Part shown: positions 9,465 through 49,480 of the stretch, in pieces | Position numbering within the stretch: position 1 is the first letter of the stretch | Layout: every line of letters starts with the position of its first letter | Sequence record: MN850645.1 | Length of the DNA: 64,000 bases | Reading direction: 5' to 3' (one strand) | Source: Escherichia phage outra | Made by a program: the position numbers and the translations under genes | Notes under the pieces: model-generated | What the model was told of the DNA's origin: nothing | Database searches by the model: none | The model's input: the letters and a program-made list of their open reading frames with translations, nothing else

Positions 9465-9734
9465 TTATTTCTCCTTTCTGAGTGTAATGTTAGTAACTTC
9501 TAAATCCACTTCTACCATTTCTGTATCATACGAAATACAGCTAAGTTGACCTCTTTGCGAACCGTTCAGACACATTGCTTGGTTTGTATTAACTTTAATA
9601 AACACTAAGTTTCTGAACGTATCTAAACCAGAATCTTGATAGGCAACATAATATACAAATGTATCACCTACGTCAAGTTCTCCAAAACATTTAGGTTCAT
9701 CTGATTTGTCGTCTTTGATATTAAATTTAAGCAC
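9465..9734 (-). CDS. hypothetical protein
   Basis: 89-aa ORF. Confidence 0.4.
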   Translation of the reverse strand: MLKFNIKDDKSDEPKCFGELDVGDTFVYYVAYQDSGLDTFRNLVFIKVNTNQAMCLNGSQRGQLSCISYDTEMVEVDLEVTNITLRKEK

Positions 9735-33476: not shown

Positions 33477-34604
33477 ATGAAATACACGATTTATGGTGAT
33501 ATTGTAAGTGTAAATAAAGATATGGGCGTGGAATCTAACTATCTTCCACCTGGATTCTATACTGTTAGTCGTGATCCCCTTGGCAATTATTTTTTAAGCC
33601 GTGGTAATCTGACAGGTGTACCTGATGTTCTGTATGGTGAAACAGAAAAACGAGCAAATCACGTTATCCGTACATTCCATCGCCGGAGTGCACAAGGTAA
33701 AAATACAGGATTGCTTCTGACAGGAACTAAGGGTAGTGGTAAAACTATGTTAGCCAAACTCATTAGTCGTGACCTTGTAGAAGAAGGTATTCCAACTATT
33801 ATGGTTACTCAAGCCTACAGCGATGCTAATTTCATTGAACTTATTAGCAAGATCACCGACAAAGCAGTGATTATTTTTGACGAGTTTGATAAAGTGTATG
33901 AGAAGAAACAAGATCAAGAAGCACTTCTCACTTTGTTAGATGGTACTGGCAGTGGTAATAAACTGTTTATTCTAACTAAAAACAGTGGCTTTATCTCTGA
34001 ATTCTTTCTAAATCGTCCTAGTCGTGTGTTTTATAATTTTAATTATGATAAAATCTCACTAGAAACTATGATTGACTATTTAGATAAAAACCTGGATAAC
34101 AAAGCACACTTTGATAATTTCCAAAGGCTTTGGGATGTAAGTTTAGAGTTGTCCTTTGATGTGATCCAAGGTATAGTAGAAGAACTTAATTTCTACCCTG
34201 ATTTATCCTTTAAAGAATGCATCTCTATGATGGGCGTTTCTTTGGGTGGTGGTAATAAGTGGGATATCAGCAGCGTTGTTATTAATGGGAAACTTCAGAA
34301 AGTTAGCTGGGTATCTAGTTGGCATAACTTCACACCTGCAATCTTTTTAGGTGGCTCGTGCACACTAGACGTGTACTTGTCATCTCCAAGTGATGCAGAC
34401 TCTAAAGAAGCCCTTGCTAATAGCTCTTACGTGGTTTTTGATGATGAAGGAGATGCTCGAATTCCATTGAATGCGACAAAAATGAAAGCAGATCTTATTA
34501 CAGGCGGTAAAATCGTTGTGTTTAGTGATGATCCAGAAGATTCTTTCCGTATTGTTCTGGAACCAACTATCACCAATGGTGCAACTTTGGCAAGCGTGTT
34601 TTAA
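33477..34604 (+). CDS. AAA+ family ATPase, paralog B
   Basis: 375 aa; Walker A GTKGSGKT, Walker B IIFDEFDKV; LLTLLDG.G...LF.LTKN.G..SEF..NRPSR.FY.F.Y shared with 17749..18909. Confidence 0.75.
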   Translation: MKYTIYGDIVSVNKDMGVESNYLPPGFYTVSRDPLGNYFLSRGNLTGVPDVLYGETEKRANHVIRTFHRRSAQGKNTGLLLTGTKGSGKTMLAKLISRDLVEEGIPTIMVTQAYSDANFIELISKITDKAVIIFDEFDKVYEKKQDQEALLTLLDGTGSGNKLFILTKNSGFISEFFLNRPSRVFYNFNYDKISLETMIDYLDKNLDNKAHFDNFQRLWDVSLELSFDVIQGIVEELNFYPDLSFKECISMMGVSLGGGNKWDISSVVINGKLQKVSWVSSWHNFTPAIFLGGSCTLDVYLSSPSDADSKEALANSSYVVFDDEGDARIPLNATKMKADLITGGKIVVFSDDPEDSFRIVLEPTITNGATLASVF

Positions 34605-34678: not shown

Positions 34679-35851
34679 ATGACAGCACCAAAATCATGGG
34701 AACAATATAAAGAAGAATTAACACCCCTTGCTAAAAATCGCAATATTCAAATCCTGGGTTATGTTGGTGAATGGAAAGGGAACAAGACTAAACTTAAGCT
34801 ATCTTGCCCTAAACATGGAGAGTGGAACACCACGAACATTAATGATTTTAAGAAGGGACGTGGTTGTCCTATCTGTTCTGGTAAGAAGCCGTTAACATGG
34901 GAAACAGAATTGCCGATCTTGGAAGAGATAGCACAGAAGAGGGGGTATCAGGTGTTAGGGTACGTGGGAGAATGGAAAGGGAATAAAACAAAACTTGATT
35001 TGTTGTGTCATTGTGGTAATAAATGGGATACTACAAGTATTAACAATTTTAAACGTGGTAGCGGTTGTCCACAATGTAAGAGGGAGAGACAAACAATGTC
35101 CGACGATCAACATATTGCAGATTTCTTTTCTACAGGGGAATTTAAGGAAGGCACTATCTTCACCAATACAGGGAAACGTAACAAGCGTGATGCAGTATGG
35201 ATGGTTGAGTGTCCTGTTTGCTCCCATGATGAATATGTTCAAGCAGGTGTTTGTGATGGTAAATTTTACTCTGCAGGACATAACCTTAAACAAGGGTATA
35301 TTCCGTGTCGTTGTGGGAACTATCAGTATACAGAAGACCAGATCACCTATAGGGTAAAAAAGGAAGTAGAAGGGAAAGGGTATGTCTGGGTAGATTGGAT
35401 TACCAAACCCTCTTCTATAGGTAAGTTTAAATATCTTTGTCTTGTGCATGGTGAGCAGATAGGGAGTGCTCGTAATTTATTAAGCCTCGGTCAAGGTTGT
35501 CCACAGTGTGCTGGTCATAATCAACAGCAATTATATATTAATATTGTTAAAGATAATGATATTATAGTTGCTCTTAAGTTTGGTATATCTAAAGATAGCG
35601 ATAGACGATTAAACGGTCAAAATAGCCGTAATCTGTTTTTTATGGGGCGTATTTGTTTATATGATTTTAGCACAGTGAAACAATGTAGGGCTGCTGAAAG
35701 AGCTATAAAGAAAAAATTAAAAACTGGTATTTTAACGGCAAGAGAGTTGAAAGATGGTTATACAGAAACAGTAAGTGTTTCTGATTTGGAAAATCTTCAA
35801 AAAATTATTACACAATATGGTGGCAAATTAGTATACAGTAAGGAGATGTAA
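34679..35851 (+). CDS. homing-endonuclease-like protein (tandem Zn-ribbon repeats plus C-terminal T5orf172/GIY-YIG-like domain)
   Basis: Two repeats LGYVGEWKGNKTKL...C..G..W.TT.IN.FK.G.GCP.C and a third CPQCAG unit; C-terminal YINIVKDNDIIVALKFGISKDSDRR; GAGGAG RBS. Confidence 0.5.
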   Translation: MTAPKSWEQYKEELTPLAKNRNIQILGYVGEWKGNKTKLKLSCPKHGEWNTTNINDFKKGRGCPICSGKKPLTWETELPILEEIAQKRGYQVLGYVGEWKGNKTKLDLLCHCGNKWDTTSINNFKRGSGCPQCKRERQTMSDDQHIADFFSTGEFKEGTIFTNTGKRNKRDAVWMVECPVCSHDEYVQAGVCDGKFYSAGHNLKQGYIPCRCGNYQYTEDQITYRVKKEVEGKGYVWVDWITKPSSIGKFKYLCLVHGEQIGSARNLLSLGQGCPQCAGHNQQQLYINIVKDNDIIVALKFGISKDSDRRLNGQNSRNLFFMGRICLYDFSTVKQCRAAERAIKKKLKTGILTARELKDGYTETVSVSDLENLQKIITQYGGKLVYSKEM

Positions 35852-36403
35852 ATGCGGATTACTGATAAGTATGTGTTCTTCTTCTCGGCAAAAGATGAAT
35901 TTAGCAACTGGTATCTATCATCTTTTATTGAACCTTTAGCTCCCAAGTATAATAATTCTATTACAAGTTCTGTTGAATTTACTTGTGTGGAACAATATAT
36001 GATGTGGAGAAAAGCATGTTTGTTTTATGATTACAACATTGCATCTTCTATTTTAACCGGAGATCTAAGATATACAGGAGAAAAAGAACAGGCATATTAT
36101 AAGCGACTAGGTAGATTAGTTAAAGATTACGATGAAGCTACTTGGACTTCTTTACGGGAGAAGATTGTCAAGCGTGGTTTGTATCTTAAATACACACAAA
36201 ATGAAGATCTCAAAAATAAACTTATCGCTTACGCAGATAAGGAGTTCGTAGAGGCAAGCCCTTATGATTCTATTTATGGTATCAAAATGGGAATGTGGGA
36301 TCGTGATGTGGAAAATAAGGACTGTTGGAAAGGACAAAATCTTTTAGGAAAATGGCATACAGACCTTGCTGTTTATCTAAAAGCACAATCTGATATTTCC
36401 TGA
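35852..36403 (+). CDS. NADAR (YbiA-like, DUF1768) family protein
   Basis: 183 aa; FFFSAKDEFSNWYLS...FTCVEQYMMWRKA and GQNLLGKWHTDLAVYL fit NADAR conserved blocks; AAGGAG RBS. Confidence 0.55.
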   Translation: MRITDKYVFFFSAKDEFSNWYLSSFIEPLAPKYNNSITSSVEFTCVEQYMMWRKACLFYDYNIASSILTGDLRYTGEKEQAYYKRLGRLVKDYDEATWTSLREKIVKRGLYLKYTQNEDLKNKLIAYADKEFVEASPYDSIYGIKMGMWDRDVENKDCWKGQNLLGKWHTDLAVYLKAQSDIS

Positions 36404-36599
36404 TATTTTGAAAATTTTTATTTTTATAAAAAGGGGTGTGGGTTTCATGTACGGAAATCCACCCTCTGAATAATATATCCAGAGTAAATATTATTCTGTA
36501 CTCTGTTAATAAAGTATTTAATTTGTTTGTTTGACTATGGTATCTGATCTTTAAAAGGCATACTATCTCTTAACTACTACTTATAACAGAACAGTAAAA

Positions 36600-36840
36600 T
36601 CATTTTTATAAAAAGGACAAAATTATTTAAAGTTTTTACAGATTTTTGGGTACAAATTTTGAAAATGAAAAGTTCAAGTTTGGTCAAAATTATTTAAAGT
36701 TTTTGTACGTATTTCTATCCAGATTTTGAAAATGAAAACTTCAATTTTTTAAAAATTCCCCAGTTTATTTAAAGTTTTTTTGCCTTTTTCCGTAGAAAAA
36801 TCAAAAATGAAAAGTTCAATTTCGTGTTTTTATGGGTGTG
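36600..36840. repeat. tandem direct repeats (about 60-70 bp period, 3-4 copies) in a non-coding region
   Basis: Recurring TTTTGAAAATGAAAAGTTCAA and ATTATTTAAAGTTTTT blocks near 36623, 36658-36698, 36724-36777, 36800-36830. Confidence 0.6.
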
Positions 36841-36841
36841 C

Positions 36842-36955
36842 GTATGATAATCATTTTCATTTGTAAATGAGAATCATTATCATTTAAGTATGTAAGTGAT
36901 AATCATTCTCAGTAAGAGAATGAGAATCATTAGCAAATGAGAATTTTCTCATTTA
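36842..36955. promoter_or_regulatory. cluster of AT-rich dyad operator-like sites (AATGA-n3-TCATT, Fur-box-like)
   Basis: gataatcatt, aatgagaatcattatc, gtgataatcattctc, gaatgagaatcattagc and the perfect palindrome aaatgagaattttctcattt. Confidence 0.45.
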
Positions 36956-37595
36956 GAGAATAACGCGCAGGGGCGGTGTTTGTCTCGCGCTCCCGTGTCC
37001 CCTCGCCATACAATAAGAATAGCATAACCAACAACAAAAGCAAGCGATTATTTTTATCTTTACATTTCTTTACAAATTTATTTTAGACGAGCTACCGGCG
37101 ATCAACCTTCCAACCAGTAGTGCCCTGGTATGTTAGCCCCGCCTTTACGCCGTGGGGGTGGCGCTTCCTCTTCTGTATGTAAAACAGTATAAGCCCGATC
37201 CCTGGGCTTGTCAAGATTATTTTTTGTTTTCTTGCCAGGATAGGACACCTAGCCAAAAATACATGTCGCCCCGCGCCCCTGGCGGGATCTTGCTTTCCCC
37301 GCCGCCACTGCAAGCCCATAGATAACCATTTGCGAACGTATCAAAATGATCTATTTCTTCCACCTTATGATCGCCCAGGTTGAGAACGGTTTCAACCTTT
37401 AAGCCCGTTGCGCTTGCTACCTGGTGCACCGTGCCGCCTTGCCAGCCTAATGAGTGCATGAGGTGTAAAGTAGTATTTGTCATGGTATCGCCCTTTCTTT
37501 GATGTGCGCCCTGGTTGGCGCGGTAGAAAGATAATAGCCCCTTTCCTTTATAGATAGCAAGCAAAAAAGAAATGAAAAAAGATTAAAAAAGGGGT

Positions 37596-37624
37596 TGACG
37601 TTCCTCACCTGGTAGCGTATTATT
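37596..37624 (+). promoter_or_regulatory. sigma70-like promoter (TTGACG-17-TATTAT)
   Basis: Read directly; located in a locally GC-richer island. Confidence 0.45.
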
Positions 37625-37854
37625 CATCTTGTCGAGGGGGGCGAGGCACAACGACAATAAACAAAAGGAGGGCGCAATGCAGGACGGGCAAAGGTGAGGA
37701 TCTCCACAATCCACCGTCACAATAACATTACTTATAAAAGGTTGATAACGATGATCAAGAAAGAAAACAGCTTGACGGTTGGAACGATTAACGCTATCAT
37801 TCTAGCCGTTCCATTTTGGATTGTAGTAGCGGTTATTATCTTTTAAAAATATTC

Positions 37855-37912
37855 TTGACAACGTTTTTTAATCTGATAAGATGTATCACATAGGGCGGCA
37901 ATAGTGCCGCTC
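37855..37912 (+). promoter_or_regulatory. early promoter plus stem-loop cassette (TTGACA, TAAGAT, hairpin GGGCGGCAATAGTGCCGCTC)
   Basis: Module directly precedes the RBS and ATG of 37935..38207. Confidence 0.6.
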
Positions 37913-43408: not shown

Positions 43409-43711
43409 ATGAACGGCATAGCTAAAACGTTTTTTCTTTTTTCTGGTGTAAATGATCCATCAATAAAAGTCGATAGTGTAAAAGAAAAAAATACTATCAC
43501 CGCTAAATTGTTTCAAGATGAAACAAATAACGTGCTAATCATTAATCTTAAAGAAGTAACGAAAGGTTATTATACTATTGCTTACCATGCGATCTATCAT
43601 GCTGGTACTGGTGAGGAAGTGCAAACAAGCAACAACGAAAGCGCGGCGCTACCTGGTGATCTGGTGCTGGGCGTTATCAGTTTAATTGTCAATGATTTTT
43701 TTAAGGAGTAA
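43409..43711 (+). CDS. hypothetical protein
   Basis: 100 aa. Confidence 0.45.
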   Translation: MNGIAKTFFLFSGVNDPSIKVDSVKEKNTITAKLFQDETNNVLIINLKEVTKGYYTIAYHAIYHAGTGEEVQTSNNESAALPGDLVLGVISLIVNDFFKE

Positions 43712-44040
43712 AACCATGCCCTATTTACATTTATTTTTCGGTATCTTATTAACAGGATCTTTTTTCTTCTGTATGCTTGTTTCTATTGTAAACCACGTTT
43801 TAAGACATTAAGGAAACAGCATGAAAATTATTCCCGTACAATATAGCGTAATAAATCCAGCATATGAGGAAGGAAGGAAAACAAGCATGGCTTTATGTTG
43901 TATTGCTACTATAGCCATGTTGTTATACATTGTGTTTTAATAGGTTTTATAGTTGTACGCTTTAAAGGCTTGACAATTTTTTGTTATGCTTTAAACTATA
44001 TCTTGAAAACGGCAAAGGCCGCAAACAAAAGGGTAAAATT

Positions 44041-47731: not shown

Positions 47732-47744
47732 ATAACATTTCAAA

Positions 47745-47773
47745 CAAGGGCGCTTATTGCGCCCTTTCTTTTT
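47745..47773 (+). terminator. Rho-independent terminator
   Basis: aagggcgcttattgcgcccttt plus T-tract. Confidence 0.7.
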
Positions 47774-47977
47774 ACCTAAATAAAGATGATAGCTTTTACC
47801 TATCAAAAACGTTCACCGAAAAAAGTGAATAGATCGCGGTATCGAGCTAATCAGGGAGCAGATGAACAACCATACCATGAAGATCATAAGGCGCTTACAA
47901 CGGCTTTTAGACCGCTTATTTTTAATTTCTTCATGCAACTATCTGGCAAAAACAGCCTTTTTCTTGTCTTTCCTCTT

Positions 47978-48052
47978 AAATGATAATCATTCTTATTTAT
48001 AGCTGATTATTTATGCAATAAACTGCATAATGCAATAATGATAATCATTCTT
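47978..48052. promoter_or_regulatory. two Fur-box-like dyads (AATGATAATCATTCTT), 55 bp apart
   Basis: Read directly. Confidence 0.4.
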
Positions 48053-48906
48053 AACTTATGACCATCTAACCTATAAAATAATAAGCTATCTAACTAAATT
48101 AAAACTAATTATCTCACCTTTATTTATAACTTACTGTTACTATCTCATTGATAACCTTATATTAAACAACAATAACTAATATAAATCATTACTAAGCTAA
48201 ATATAATCTATCTAACCTTTAAAACTATAACTATAATCTATCGAATTGTTGCACAAAGTAACTATTAAATTGTTAGTAACATTGCTAAATAATTAATATC
48301 CTATCTATTTATGATCTAATCTTTACCTTCCTATTTATTACCTAAATAACCATTTCATATAGTAATTATTTCATACAATAACTATAACAAGAAACATAAT
48401 TCGCAAGCGTATCATTAGCAGCCTATGCCGGACACATAGGCGGCTAATAATAACGCAACTACACACCCCACATAATAACCATCACCGATAGTTATTATTT
48501 GTGCTTATGTAGCTTGCAACAATTGCAAGCGCAACAATATACTAAGGTATATTGTATCCCTTACATTGTTGCGGTGCGTTATTATTAGCTAATGTTTAGA
48601 ACATTGGCTATAATATAAGCTGCATATAATAAGCTATTCAATAATAAACATCGTGAATAATGACATTGATGATCATAATGCGCCACCCTCCAGGGGGCGC
48701 TATGTGAACACAAAGAAATCTTTCTTATCAAGAAAATATTATCACTATTGCGCAAAATTATTTACATCTGAATAGATGATTTTTCATACTATTATTGTTA
48801 TTTGTTGAGCATAGTTATAGCCTATTTGTTGAGCCTACTTTCTTAAAAGCGCAATAAATCAGAATTATCTTGATTTTTAGTGCGTTTTATAGTATAGAAA
48901 ATATGC

Positions 48907-48923
48907 AAATGATAATCATTATC
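48907..48923. promoter_or_regulatory. near-perfect Fur-box-like site (AAATGATAATCATTATC) just downstream of a TTGATT-N17-TATAGA promoter-like element
   Basis: 15-nt identity with positions 5-19 of the E. coli Fur consensus GATAATGATAATCATTATC. Confidence 0.45.
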
Positions 48924-49480
48924 AGCTATCTTCCACGGGTAGCACTATTTCACGCCAGATCATTTCATTTGGCAAGGTGTATATAGATGTTTAGACTTGC
49001 CAAGTTATTGATTTACTTAGAATTTATCTATTTTGTTGTGAGTAGTACCTTTCTTGCTTAGAAAATAATCAAAAGTCTTATAAGTCATTGAATGATAATA
49101 CAAATGATAATTATTCTCATTGATATTTGAGGGGGACGGTCGGCAGAAATCGGGGGGTGCTGAAAATCGCGTTAAGCACCTCTCGCAAGCGAGCAGTATT
49201 TTGCGGCAAGTTATTGATATTATTGGCTTTACGCTTATGAAAAGGGGGTGTGTCGAAATAAAGCGGGTATACCGGAAAATTTTTGTGGCATAGATATTTA
49301 TTTGTCTATATTATGTACAAAGGGGTGTGTTAAAAATATTAGGTATATATAGAATAATTGATAGGGAAATCCTATACTAATCCCTCCATTAATGATGTTT
49401 CTATGTTACTGTTCTTGTAATAGATGAAAAGACGCTGTATGATGTGTGGCATGAAACGTAAACTTATAAAGGAGTCTGAT

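What the first reader, a model, noticed from the sequence alone, without database searches (positions are those of the whole stretch)
36600..36840. Tandem 60-70 bp direct repeats in an ORF-free region
Blocks TTTTGAAAATGAAAAGTTCAA and ATTATTTAAAGTTTTT recur three to four times with roughly regular spacing immediately upstream of the dyad cluster. Iterated AT-rich repeats next to dyad operators are typical of replication origins (iterons) or of multi-site regulatory regions; nothing here is translated.
Basis: seen in the sequence. Interest (0 to 1): 0.5.

Follow-up and report, generated by a model that had tools for sequence, protein, structure and literature searches.

The report
Conserved three-unit repeat array, phi92-like phage
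Three non-coding tandem repeats in a phi92-like coliphage are real and kept in number and usually spacing, but not sequence, across two phage subfamilies, so they look like a protein-docking array in a control locus, possibly a replication origin.

Summary
Window 36602-36822 carries three (not four) direct repeats of 67, 75 and 79 bp, 23% GC, with no plausible ORF. The window is a Justusliebigvirus (phi92-like, about 99.9% identical to ESCO8).

The array belongs to a conserved non-coding locus of about 0.8 kb. In order it holds TGATATTT repeats, a minus-strand terminator, three tandem units, 1-5 Fur-box-like dyads, a conserved GC-rich element and two sigma-70 promoters that fire into the dyads and repeats.

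The locus recurs in Stephanstirmvirinae and Vequintavirinae. Unit sequences differ completely between subfamilies. The number stays at three. The unit 1 to unit 3 distance is 138-143 bp in 12 of 14 lineages.

It lies 11.6-11.9 kb (7.8-8.0%) from the right genome end. The dyad cluster matches T5's "injection stop signal" region.

Best reading: a binding array for a lineage-specific, probably phage-encoded protein on easily melted DNA. The most likely role is a T7-style transcription-activated origin (about 0.35). No initiator gene or DnaA/IHF sites were found.

Rivals: a T5-like boundary or entry checkpoint, a regulatory or host-factor site, and an RNA element. Function is unproven.

The parts
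36390..36415 (+). Left edge of the locus: CTGATATTTC x1.9 (TGATATTT repeats) overlapping the stop codon of the NADAR gene, followed by ATTTTGAAAAT, the core of the B box.
   Evidence: family D5. TGATATTT x2-4 sits at the same edge in every lineage although the upstream gene differs.
36433..36464 (-). Hairpin followed by UUUUUAU on the minus strand. This is a terminator-like end for leftward transcripts that cross the repeats.
   Evidence: Direct reading. RNAfold gives -11.8 kcal/mol. The + strand lacks a U-run after the hairpin.
36602..36668 (+). Repeat unit 1 (67 bp): TTTTTATAAAAA palindrome, A box at 36622-36637, B box at 36657-36677.
36669..36743 (+). Repeat unit 2 (75 bp): A box at 36689-36704, B box at 36724-36744.
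36744..36822 (+). Repeat unit 3 (79 bp): ATTTTTTAAAAAT palindrome, A box at 36764-36779, TTTTTC-CGTA-GAAAAA dyad, degenerate B box at 36799-36819.
   Evidence: This unit is invariant in 10 Justusliebigvirus genomes.
36845..36951 (.). Cluster of four 7-1-7 dyads (TGAKAATcATTMTCA) at 36845, 36868, 36897 and 36921, plus a 14-nt variant at 36938. They match the Fur-box consensus GATAATGATAATCATTATC at 15-16 of 19 positions.
   Evidence: blastn matches the T5 'injection stop signal' region.
37016..37075 (-). Inner leftward promoter zone (P2). Candidates are TTGTAA-17-AATAAT (37075..37047) and TTGCTT-16-TATTCT (37043..37016). The invariant CTTTACAnnnCTTTACA direct repeat (37058-37074) lies in the same zone.
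   Evidence: The second candidate and the CTTTACA coordinates come from direct reading.
37057..37183 (-). Conserved GC-rich element, about 83% identical between genera. It lies just downstream of P1 and is a candidate structured RNA leader.
   Evidence: One compensatory pair was seen and there is no Rfam hit.
37186..37214 (-). Outer leftward sigma-70 promoter P1, TTGACA-17-TATACT (11 of 12).
   Evidence: It is conserved in position in 14 of 14 lineages with 9-12 of 12 matches, while its spacer sequence varies.
37595..37882 (+). Rightward sigma-70 promoters (37595, 37772, 37855) at the head of the block of small + strand ORFs at 37.7-47.7 kb. These give context for the locus.

Best explanation
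The three repeats are a cis-acting docking array for a sequence-specific DNA-binding protein. Because the recognition boxes differ between phage lineages, that protein is most likely phage-encoded. Each unit offers two boxes, A and B, 40 bp apart. The three units span about 140 bp of the least stable DNA in this part of the genome.

The array is one module of a conserved composite locus of about 0.8 kb. Two host-type sigma-70 promoters, P1 and P2, transcribe leftward. Their transcripts pass a G-rich conserved leader and a cluster of Fur boxes, enter the array, and stop at a terminator before the NADAR gene.

The most likely role is a transcription-activated or transcription-primed origin of replication of the T7/T4 kind. 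In that model RNA polymerase opens or primes the AT-rich array, and the array-bound protein stabilises the opening or recruits the primase-helicase. Fur binding in between could gate this step.

Shown here: the repeats, their conservation, their spacing, purifying selection on the boxes, the promoter and terminator consensus matches, the low duplex stability and the Fur-box match.

Inferred only: that any protein binds, that P1 and P2 fire, and that DNA synthesis starts here.
For: - The repeats are real and unique within the 64-kb window.
- The same locus, with three tandem units, occurs in Justusliebigvirus, Phapecoctavirus, Klebsiella Stephanstirmvirinae, Seunavirus, Mydovirus, Certrevirus, Vequintavirus and several uncultured lineages.
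- Unit sequences are unrelated between subfamilies. Self-similarity offsets are nonetheless 66-67, 74-78 or 63 bp, and the sum is 138-143 bp in 12 of 14 lineages.
- In 10 Justusliebigvirus genomes, about 12 sites vary across 36560-36835, and only 1 falls inside the A/B boxes.
- The array is at least 99% identical in 40 of 55 full-length records. For the surrounding 701 bp only 3 records, of 55 covering at least 80% of it, reach that level.
- The array shows no RNA structure beyond shuffles in the window, z = +0.2 and +0.9. This favours a DNA-level role.
- P1 scores 11 of 12 and is conserved in position in 14 of 14 lineages. P2 is present in most.
- The minus-strand terminator hairpin lies at 36433-36464.
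- The window 36468-36707 is the second least stable 240-bp stretch of the 64 kb. The array is 23% GC.
- Relatives carry a PolA-type polymerase and a T7 gp4-like primase-helicase (PMC3606486; PMC12210895). For that replisome the known origin type is tandem promoters firing into AT-rich DNA (T7 primary origin; my own knowledge).
Against: - No origin activity has been measured in this phage group. The rV5 authors' skew analysis found only transcription-linked switches (PMC3606486).
- In the window the GC-skew sign change is at about 32 kb, not at the array.
- No initiator-type gene is adjacent. The AAA+ ATPase at 33477-34604 resembles Bcs1, Rpt and NSF rather than DnaA, DnaC or Orc. The other neighbours are a homing-endonuclease-like protein and a NADAR protein.
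- No DnaA or IHF consensus site is conserved.
- Units of 67-79 bp are unlike classical iterons.
- A transcription-primed origin would not obviously need a lineage-specific array.
- The 1.7-kb non-coding region around the terminal repeat (47.7-49.4 kb) is even less stable. It is an equally good place for an origin.
- In one metagenomic relative (L039) the array is replaced by two promoter-like repeats.
- In rV5-like LL12 the spacing is 65+52 bp, not about 141 bp.
Confidence: 0.35

Rival explanations
1. The locus is a boundary or DNA-entry checkpoint equivalent to T5 'repeat region 3' (the injection stop signal). It marks the inner end of a terminal block of about 12 kb of host-polymerase-transcribed early genes. 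A phage protein bound to the array, possibly in the virion, would pause genome delivery or organise the boundary. Transcription from P1 and P2, which point towards the rest of the genome, would help bring in or open up the remainder.
For: - The dyad cluster gives blastn hits to the annotated iss region of T5 (9608-9709) and to the same place in many T5-like genomes.
- T5 shows the same order of parts: dyads, then an array of direct repeats (9 x DRD), then TTATCTCAA-type motifs. Those motifs also occur next to the array in phAPEC8, phiWec190 and KB57.
- The array lies 11.6-11.9 kb, or 7.8-8.0% of the genome, from the right end of phi92 (annotated terminal repeat). T5's first-step-transfer DNA is 7.9%.
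- In rV5-like LL12, with PhageTerm-mapped ends, the locus lies about 12.4-12.6 kb from an end.
- The strongest sigma-70 matches sit at this boundary and none sit near the terminal repeat.
- The block between the locus and the end holds only small ORFs of unknown function.
Against: [quoted passage not shown]
- The similarity to T5 is confined to the Fur-like dyads and one short motif, not the tandem units.
- The paired DnaA boxes of T5 are absent.
- The terminal repeat here is 343 bp, against 10 kb in T5.
- No A1-sized gene lies in the block.
- It is not known which end enters the cell first.
- The shared distance among phi92-like and rV5-like phages may simply be inherited gene order.
Confidence: 0.2
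2. The locus is a transcription-control or host-factor platform. The array and the Fur boxes would be operator-like or decoy sites. They would regulate the divergent early promoters or, once the genome is amplified, titrate host regulators such as Fur to re-programme the cell, for example by de-repressing iron uptake for the phage ribonucleotide reductases.
For: - There are 36 matches of at least 14 of 19 to the Fur consensus, against 5.5 in shuffles. The best are clustered at 36840-36935 and in the terminal non-coding region: 48034 (16 of 19) and 48905 (17 of 19).
- The dyads stay the same in phage groups that share almost nothing else, which points to a conserved host protein.
- Fur boxes on multicopy DNA de-repress the Fur regulon (FURTA principle; my own knowledge).
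- The phage encodes NrdD-like and other ribonucleotide reductases.
- In contig L039 promoter-like repeats take the place of the array.
Against: - The array boxes are lineage-specific, so they are not sites for a conserved host factor.
- The array lies 130-370 bp downstream of P2 and more than 700 bp from the rightward early promoters. That is a poor position for an operator.
- No convincing, conserved sigma-70 promoter lies inside the units.
- No regulator gene was recognised next to the locus.
- A Keio screen for rV5-like LL12 does not mention fur.
Confidence: 0.2
3. The repeats act as RNA. The P1/P2 transcript would be a non-coding RNA of 0.5-0.75 kb whose three repeated modules bind or sponge a protein or RNA, or act as an antitoxin-like repeat RNA.
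For: - Conserved promoters face the array and a terminator follows it.
- A conserved GC-rich leader carries one compensatory base pair.
- Relatives show mildly negative folding z-scores.
Against: - Folding of the window array is no better than shuffles on either strand.
- The negative z-scores in relatives occur on both strands, as expected from DNA dyads.
- There is no Rfam match.
- Unit sequence is not conserved between lineages while spacing in base pairs is.
- The known repeat RNA of phiTE, pseudo-ToxI, maps to 106.7 kb, whereas this locus is at about 39.5 kb.
Confidence: 0.1
4. The array is a packaging recognition (pac-like) site for the small terminase subunit.
For: - Arrays of direct repeats on bent, AT-rich DNA are typical terminase-binding sites, as in SPP1 pacL and lambda cosB (my own knowledge).
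- Some assemblies break at this locus.
Against: - The physical ends and the 343-bp terminal repeat map about 12 kb away, at window 48832-49174. In LL12 they are also about 12 kb away.
- The assembly breaks are explained by the tandem repeats themselves.
Confidence: 0.05

Closest known systems
T7 primary origin (tandem promoters phi1.1A/1.1B followed by an AT-rich stretch) and the T4 oriF/oriG type (promoter plus downstream DNA-unwinding element)
   Same: Two tandem promoters point into a markedly AT-rich, low-stability, non-coding stretch. Relatives have a PolA plus gp4-like primase-helicase replisome. No dedicated initiator gene is found nearby.
   Different: The promoters here are of the host sigma-70 type. 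The AT-rich part is 240 bp and organised as three long repeats. It is separated from the promoters by a Fur-box cluster. No initiation has been mapped.
Iteron origins of lambdoid phages, P1, P4 and theta plasmids
   Same: There are direct repeats with lineage-specific sequence, presumably matched to a cognate binding protein, on or next to easily melted DNA.
   Different: Units are 67-79 bp and bipartite rather than 17-22 bp. There are only three. There is no adjacent Rep or O gene and no DnaA or IHF boxes.
Phage T5 repeat region 3, the 'injection stop signal' (Heusterspreute 1987; Wang 2005; Davison 2020 preprint)
   Same: Both are long non-coding regions about 8% from a genome end, at the inner edge of a block of small early genes. 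Both hold a cluster of nearly identical Fur-like palindromes beside an array of direct repeats. Some relatives also carry TTATCTCAA motifs.
   Different: T5 has 9 short DRD repeats rather than 3 long units. T5 has paired DnaA boxes, a nick site and a 10-kb terminal repeat. The two phage groups are otherwise unrelated. The function of the T5 region is untested.
Fur boxes of Enterobacterales (19-bp GATAATGATAATCATTATC; 7-1-7 TGATAATnATTATCA)
   Same: The neighbouring dyads match at 15-17 of 19 positions. They come in overlapping or phased clusters, as in strongly Fur-bound promoters.
   Different: They lie in a lytic phage, downstream of promoters rather than over a recognisable iron-regulated promoter. 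Binding has not been tested. These are the neighbours of the finding, not the repeats themselves.

Membership tests
Transcription-primed phage origin (T7 primary origin / T4 oriF-oriG type) | One or more promoters oriented into the origin region | tested here: met
   P1 (37214..37186) scores 11 of 12 and is conserved in position in 14 of 14 lineages. P2 is present in most. This rests on consensus matches only.
Transcription-primed phage origin (T7 primary origin / T4 oriF-oriG type) | AT-rich DNA-unwinding stretch downstream of the promoter | tested here: met
   The array is 23% GC. The window 36468-36707 is the second least stable 240-bp stretch of the 64 kb. It begins about 130 bp after P2, which is further than in T7 or T4.
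Transcription-primed phage origin (T7 primary origin / T4 oriF-oriG type) | Replisome of the matching type (PolA-family polymerase plus gp4-like primase-helicase) | not tested
   This is reported for rV5 and BME3 in papers. The genes lie outside this window.
Transcription-primed phage origin (T7 primary origin / T4 oriF-oriG type) | DNA synthesis or an R-loop starts at the site | not testable with these tools
   This needs marker-frequency, nascent-strand or DRIP mapping in infected cells.
Iteron-type origin (lambda, P1, theta plasmids) | Several 17-22 bp direct repeats in helical phase | tested here: not met
   There are three bipartite units of 67-79 bp. The boxes are 16-21 bp long and spaced 40, then 27 or 35 bp apart.
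Iteron-type origin (lambda, P1, theta plasmids) | Initiator gene adjacent to, or containing, the iterons | tested here: not met
   The neighbours are a NADAR protein, a CapR/T5orf172 endonuclease-like protein and an AAA ATPase whose model (pLDDT 85.7) matches Bcs1, Rpt and NSF, not DnaA, DnaC or Orc. Small ORFs on the other side have no DNA-binding domains.
Iteron-type origin (lambda, P1, theta plasmids) | Host DnaA boxes and/or IHF sites | tested here: not met
   There is no conserved TTWTNCACA or WATCAANNNNTTR in 10 lineages.
T5 repeat region 3 / injection stop signal | Long non-coding repeat-rich region at about 8% from a physical end, bounding the first-expressed genes | tested here: met
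   The array lies at 7.8-8.0% from the right end in phi92 coordinates. A block of small ORFs with its promoters lies at the boundary.
T5 repeat region 3 / injection stop signal | Cluster of palindromes of the T5 DRE/DRC/pal type | tested here: met
   blastn hits to T5 9608-9709, E = 2e-5, and to many T5-like phages at the same place. This applies to the adjacent dyads, not to the tandem units.
T5 repeat region 3 / injection stop signal | Paired DnaA boxes (IRD'-spacer-IRC') | tested here: not met
T5 repeat region 3 / injection stop signal | Located within a long (about 10 kb) terminal repeat | tested here: not met
   The terminal repeat is 343 bp, at window 48832-49174.
T5 repeat region 3 / injection stop signal | Two-step DNA transfer that depends on A1/A2-like proteins | not testable with these tools
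   This needs shear or arrest experiments. No A1-sized ORF lies in the 37.7-47.7 kb block.
Fur box (for the adjacent dyads) | Match to the 19-bp or 7-1-7 consensus above chance | tested here: met
   Matches of 15-17 of 19. There are 36 sites of at least 14 of 19, against 5.5 in shuffles. The 7-1-7 boxes show 0-1 mismatch.
Fur box (for the adjacent dyads) | Binding by Fur-Fe2+ and iron-dependent regulation | not testable with these tools
   This needs EMSA, FURTA or ChIP.
Repeat RNA antitoxin (ToxI / pseudo-ToxI) or CRISPR-like mini-array | Repeats of about 36 nt similar to ToxI, or repeats of 28-37 bp with unique spacers of 30-40 bp that match host repeats | tested here: not met
   The pseudo-ToxI of phiTE lies at 106.7 kb, a different locus. 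The variable parts here are 6-21 bp. There is no similarity to E. coli genomes.

The most novel reading that the evidence does not exclude
The locus (array, Fur boxes and inward-facing promoters) may be the functional counterpart of T5's injection-stop region. If so, two large subfamilies of myoviruses, phi92-like and rV5-like, would deliver or activate their genomes in stages. A terminal 8% 'first segment' would be bounded by a phage-protein-bound repeat array and a host-Fur-bound checkpoint. The long-unexplained T5 signal would then be a widespread, Fur-linked device.
Probability: 0.12. Interest if true: 0.85.

Novelty: new variant of a known kind. Interest (0 to 1): 0.55.

Why it matters
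No origin, entry signal or early-control site has been defined for phi92-like, phAPEC8-like or rV5-like phages. These phages are widely used in therapy cocktails and in the BASEL collection.

A unique, strongly conserved three-unit array gives a concrete, mutable target for finding one. Its spacing is kept while its sequence co-varies with lineage.

The neighbouring near-consensus Fur boxes are shared with the untested T5 'injection stop' region. They suggest that lytic coliphages from unrelated families plug into the host iron regulator. They also make the T5 question testable in a second system.

In practice, the repeats break or mis-circularise assemblies and produce spurious attL/attR or terminal-repeat annotations.

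Tried and rejected
- **RNA families and tRNAs.** The Rfam scan found only one sub-threshold chance hit. There are no tRNAs.
- **Coding potential.** No ORF exceeds 36 codons and none is conserved.
- **pseudo-ToxI of phiTE.** It lies at a different locus, 106.7 kb.
- **CRISPR-like mini-array.** The geometry is wrong and there is no host match.
- **Host mimicry.** No similarity to 5,426 E. coli genomes was found for the array plus dyads or for the GC-rich element.
- **Adjacent initiator.** The AAA+ ATPase gave weak Hda, DnaC and Orc sequence hits. Its AlphaFold model matches classical AAA proteins instead.
- **Neighbouring small ORFs.** None has a recognisable DNA-binding domain.
- **DnaA and IHF boxes.** They are absent.
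- **RNA folding of the array.** It is not better than shuffles in the window.
- **A-tract phasing.** It is significant in the window (p = 0.03) and in one Seunavirus, but not in four other lineages, so it is not a conserved property.
- **GC skew.** The sign change follows gene orientation at about 32 kb. The rV5 authors reached the same conclusion.
- **Withdrawn claim.** I first thought a Fur box sat exactly at the edge of the terminal repeat. That came from a shifted feature in the BME3 record. The phi92 annotation places the repeat at 48832-49174.
- **phiWec187 terminal redundancy.** Its 148-bp redundancy maps inside the early block and looks like an assembly artefact.
- **Literature.** Searches found no transcriptome or origin study for these subfamilies.

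Full report
**1. Identity of the window**

The region 36400-37100 is 99.9% identical to Escherichia phage vB_EcoM_ESCO8. It is 96-99% identical to about 55 other Justusliebigvirus genomes (phi92-like, Stephanstirmvirinae, about 147 kb).

Genes to the left are a classical AAA ATPase (33477-34604), a CapR/T5orf172 endonuclease-like protein (34679-35851) and a NADAR protein (35852-36403). To the right lie a small minus-strand ORF (37217-37564) and then about 10 kb of small + strand ORFs of unknown function.

**2. The observation**

Tandem Repeats Finder gives period 67, 81% matches and score 178. The repeat finder gives three in-register copies starting at 36602, 36669 and 36744, with spacings of 67 and 75 bp.

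- TTTTGAAAATGAAAAGTTCAA (B box) occurs at 36657 and 36724, against 0.05 expected. A third copy at 36799 matches 17 of 21.
- ATTATTTAAAGTTTTT (A box) occurs three times, against 0.56 expected.

Neither block occurs elsewhere in the window. Each unit therefore has an A box and, 40 bp later, a B box. T/A-tract palindromes such as TTTTTATAAAAA and ATTTTTTAAAAAT lie at unit borders.

Nothing in the region is plausibly translated. There is no tRNA or Rfam family. GenBank records of alia and inny already tag the stretch as 'repeat_region' without comment.

**3. The surroundings form one composite locus**

Reading left to right on the + strand, the parts are:
1. TGATATTT x2 overlapping the NADAR stop codon, then ATTTTGAAAAT.
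2. A hairpin at 36433-36464 that is followed by a U-run only on the minus strand.
3. The three units.
4. Four or five 7-1-7 dyads, TGAKAATcATTMTCA, at 36845-36951.
5. A conserved segment, GGTGTTTGTCTC..., and an invariant CTTTACAnnnCTTTACA.
6. A GC-rich element of about 125 nt at 37057-37183.
7. A near-consensus minus-strand promoter, TTGACA-17-TATACT, at 37214..37186. A second, weaker one lies about 150 bp inside it.

Leftward transcripts from these promoters would cross the dyads and the repeats and end at the hairpin. Strong rightward promoters at 37595, 37772 and 37855 head the block of small ORFs.

**4. Relatives**

I collected the homologous locus in two ways. I used blastn with the GC-rich element. 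I also ran exact-pattern scans of viral and metagenome contigs with TTAGCCCCGCCTTTNCGCCGTGGGG. I then oriented all the loci on that anchor.

The same order of parts appears in these groups:
- Justusliebigvirus
- Phapecoctavirus (phAPEC8, phiWec190)
- Klebsiella Stephanstirmvirinae (KP2025, KP13-26)
- Seunavirus (SSE121, EspYZU14, and a contig of PVP-SE1 size)
- Mydovirus (KB57)
- Certrevirus (phiTE, CR9)
- several uncultured lineages

rV5-like LL12 lacks the anchor, but it has the edge repeats, three units and the dyads.

The units are unrelated in sequence between subfamilies:
- Stephanstirmvirinae: AATTATTTAAAGTTTTT plus AAATTTAAAGTTT or AAAATGAAAAGTTCAA.
- Vequintavirinae: GGTTCTCGATCG, then CGTATT exactly 30 bp later, then TTTTTTC-N8-GAAAAAATTTTT.

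The number of units is nonetheless three, and the geometry is kept:

| Lineage | Start-to-start distances (bp) |
|---|---|
| Window (Justusliebigvirus) | 67 + 75 |
| KP13-26 | 66 + 75 |
| Seunavirus | 75 + 67 |
| Mydovirus | 74 + 66 or 67 |
| Certrevirus | 78 + 63 |

An unbiased self-similarity scan returns these offsets, and a sum of 138-143 bp, as the top signals in 12 of 14 lineages.

There are three exceptions:
- LL12 has 65 + 52 bp.
- Contig L022 gives a noisier signal.
- In contig L039 the array is replaced by two sigma-70-like repeats facing the dyads.

In Phapecoctavirus the middle unit has decayed into a TTATCTCAAA-type motif.

**5. Selection within the genus**

In ten Justusliebigvirus genomes about 12 sites vary between 36560 and 36835. 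Only one of them lies in the 114 bp of A and B boxes, and it makes B2 identical to B1 and B3. Unit 3 is invariant.

The 231-bp array is at least 99% identical in 40 of 55 full-length records. For the 701 bp around it only 3 records, of 55 covering at least 80% of it, reach that level.

The number of dyads varies. Phage arall has lost two through a 52-bp deletion. Other genera have one to eight.

**6. DNA or RNA?**

The array does not fold better than dinucleotide shuffles on either strand in the window, with z = +0.2 and +0.9. In relatives the z-scores are mildly negative on both strands, as DNA dyads would give.

Base-pair spacing is conserved while sequence is not. Together these results point to a DNA-level element that binds protein.

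The boxes co-vary with phage lineage, so the binder is probably phage-encoded. The dyads are constant across unrelated phages, so they probably bind a host protein. No candidate binder gene was recognised nearby.

**7. The dyads are near-consensus Fur boxes**

Against GATAATGATAATCATTATC the window has sites with these scores:

| Position | Matches of 19 |
|---|---|
| 36840 | 15 |
| 36863 | 16 |
| 36892 | 15 |
| 36916 | 16 |
| 48034 | 16 |
| 48905 | 17 |
| 49100 | 14 |

Overall there are 36 matches of at least 14 of 19, against 5.5 in shuffles.

The same cluster produces blastn hits to the annotated 'injection stop signal' of T5 (9608-9709) and to the same place in dozens of T5-like genomes.

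In T5 the order is DnaA boxes, dyads, nine DRD direct repeats, then TTATCTCAA-type DRA repeats. The searchable T5 literature does not mention Fur. It states that the function of this region is experimentally untested.

**8. Position in the genome**

phi92 has an annotated 343-bp right terminal repeat, which maps to window 48832-49174. The ends of the BME3 record repeat the same stretch, and its authors report a 342-bp repeat by PhageTerm.

The array is therefore 11.6-11.9 kb from the right end, or 7.8-8.0% of the genome. It sits at the inner edge of the terminal block of small ORFs, and the best sigma-70 promoters sit at this edge. None stands out near the terminal repeat.

In LL12, whose ends were mapped by PhageTerm, the locus is about 12.4-12.6 kb from an end. 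T5's first-step-transfer DNA is 7.9% of its genome.

The agreement among phi92-like and rV5-like phages may be inherited gene order. The resemblance to T5 is independent of that.

**9. Testing the origin idea**

For:
- The array is 23% GC.
- The window 36468-36707 is the second least stable 240-bp stretch of the 64 kb.
- Two conserved promoters fire into it.
- Relatives have a PolA-type polymerase and a T7 gp4-like primase-helicase. For that replisome the textbook origin is tandem promoters followed by AT-rich DNA.

Against:
- No initiator gene is adjacent.
- There are no DnaA or IHF boxes.
- The GC-skew switch is at about 32 kb and follows gene orientation. This is the same conclusion the rV5 authors reached.
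- The units are much longer than iterons.
- The terminal non-coding region is even less stable.
- No experiment exists.

**10. Verdict**

The repeats are a genuine, selected, cis-acting array. I put the confidence at about 0.8 that they are a functional DNA element that binds protein.

Estimated probabilities for their role:

| Role | Probability |
|---|---|
| Transcription-activated origin | 0.35 |
| T5-like boundary or entry checkpoint | 0.20 |
| Regulatory or host-factor platform | 0.20 |
| RNA element | 0.10 |
| Packaging site | 0.05 |
| No function | under 0.05 |

As far as the literature I could search shows, three things are new. One is the conservation across subfamilies of unit number and spacing while the sequence turns over. 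Another is the Fur-box identity of the neighbouring dyads. The third is the architectural parallel with the T5 region.

Noticed in passing
window 36845-36951; also 47976-48052, 48905-48923, 49090-49121: Near-consensus Fur boxes (15-17 of 19) are clustered beside the repeats and in and around the 343-bp terminal repeat. The same motif cluster occurs in the T5 'injection stop signal' region. I found no mention of Fur in the T5 papers I searched.
   Followed up: partly
window 37057-37183 (minus strand), promoter 37214..37186: A GC-rich element of about 125 nt lies behind a conserved promoter. It is about 83% identical between genera that share little other DNA identity. It has a possible pseudoknot-like CGCC/CCCC...GGCG/GGGG arrangement, one compensatory pair and no Rfam hit. 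It may be an undescribed phage ncRNA.
   Followed up: partly
window 37058-37074: CTTTACAnnnCTTTACA, a direct repeat with a 10-bp period, is invariant in all lineages. It lies just upstream of the inner leftward promoter. It resembles a response-regulator or UP-type site.
   Followed up: no
window 36390-36415: TGATATTT repeats (x2-4) mark the left edge of the locus in every lineage, although the upstream gene differs (NADAR here, an unrelated protein of about 280 aa in Vequintavirinae).
   Followed up: partly
window 47740-49420: This 1.7-kb non-coding region holds the terminal repeat (48832-49174). It contains the least stable DNA of the window (19-20% GC at 48.03-48.39 kb), many TATCT(A/C)A repeats and a strong + strand terminator at 47746-47766.
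   Followed up: partly
window 33477-34604: This AAA+ ATPase has N- and C-terminal beta-rich domains. Its model (pLDDT 85.7) is closest to Bcs1, proteasomal Rpt and NSF. It is annotated as 'replicative helicase' in Klebsiella phage KP2025, which looks wrong.
   Followed up: yes
L039 (metagenome contig Ga0208609_102219), oriented region 700-960: In this relative the three-unit array is replaced by two repeats that look like sigma-70 promoters (TTGACA-17-CATAAT and TGGACA-17-CATAAT). They face the same dyad cluster.
   Followed up: partly
L029 (phage arall) versus window 36843-36895: A natural 52-bp deletion removes two of the four dyads and leaves the repeat array intact.
   Followed up: yes
PQ002170 (L036/L037); LC739536 (L034/L035; window 43696-43843): The 80-bp 'attL/attR' features at the ends of a Seunavirus record probably come from the tandem units. 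The 148-bp terminal redundancy of phiWec187 maps inside the early gene block. Both look like assembly or annotation artefacts rather than real ends. PQ002170 is also filed under Demerecviridae, although it carries the Seunavirus locus.
   Followed up: partly
hits H44, H166-H168 (MG065656, MG065639, MG065689): Records named 'Campylobacter phage C3/A150/A110a' are 97-99% identical to this E. coli phage over the locus. They are probably contaminants or mislabelled.
   Followed up: no
L005 3242-3261, 4770-4789 (phAPEC8); compare window about 37625-37660: The 'PHIRE promoters' annotated in phAPEC8 are conserved GC-rich stem-loops (GTAGGGCGGCAATGGTGCCGCTC). They lie just downstream of sigma-70 promoters, so they are 5'-leader hairpins rather than promoters.
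   Followed up: no
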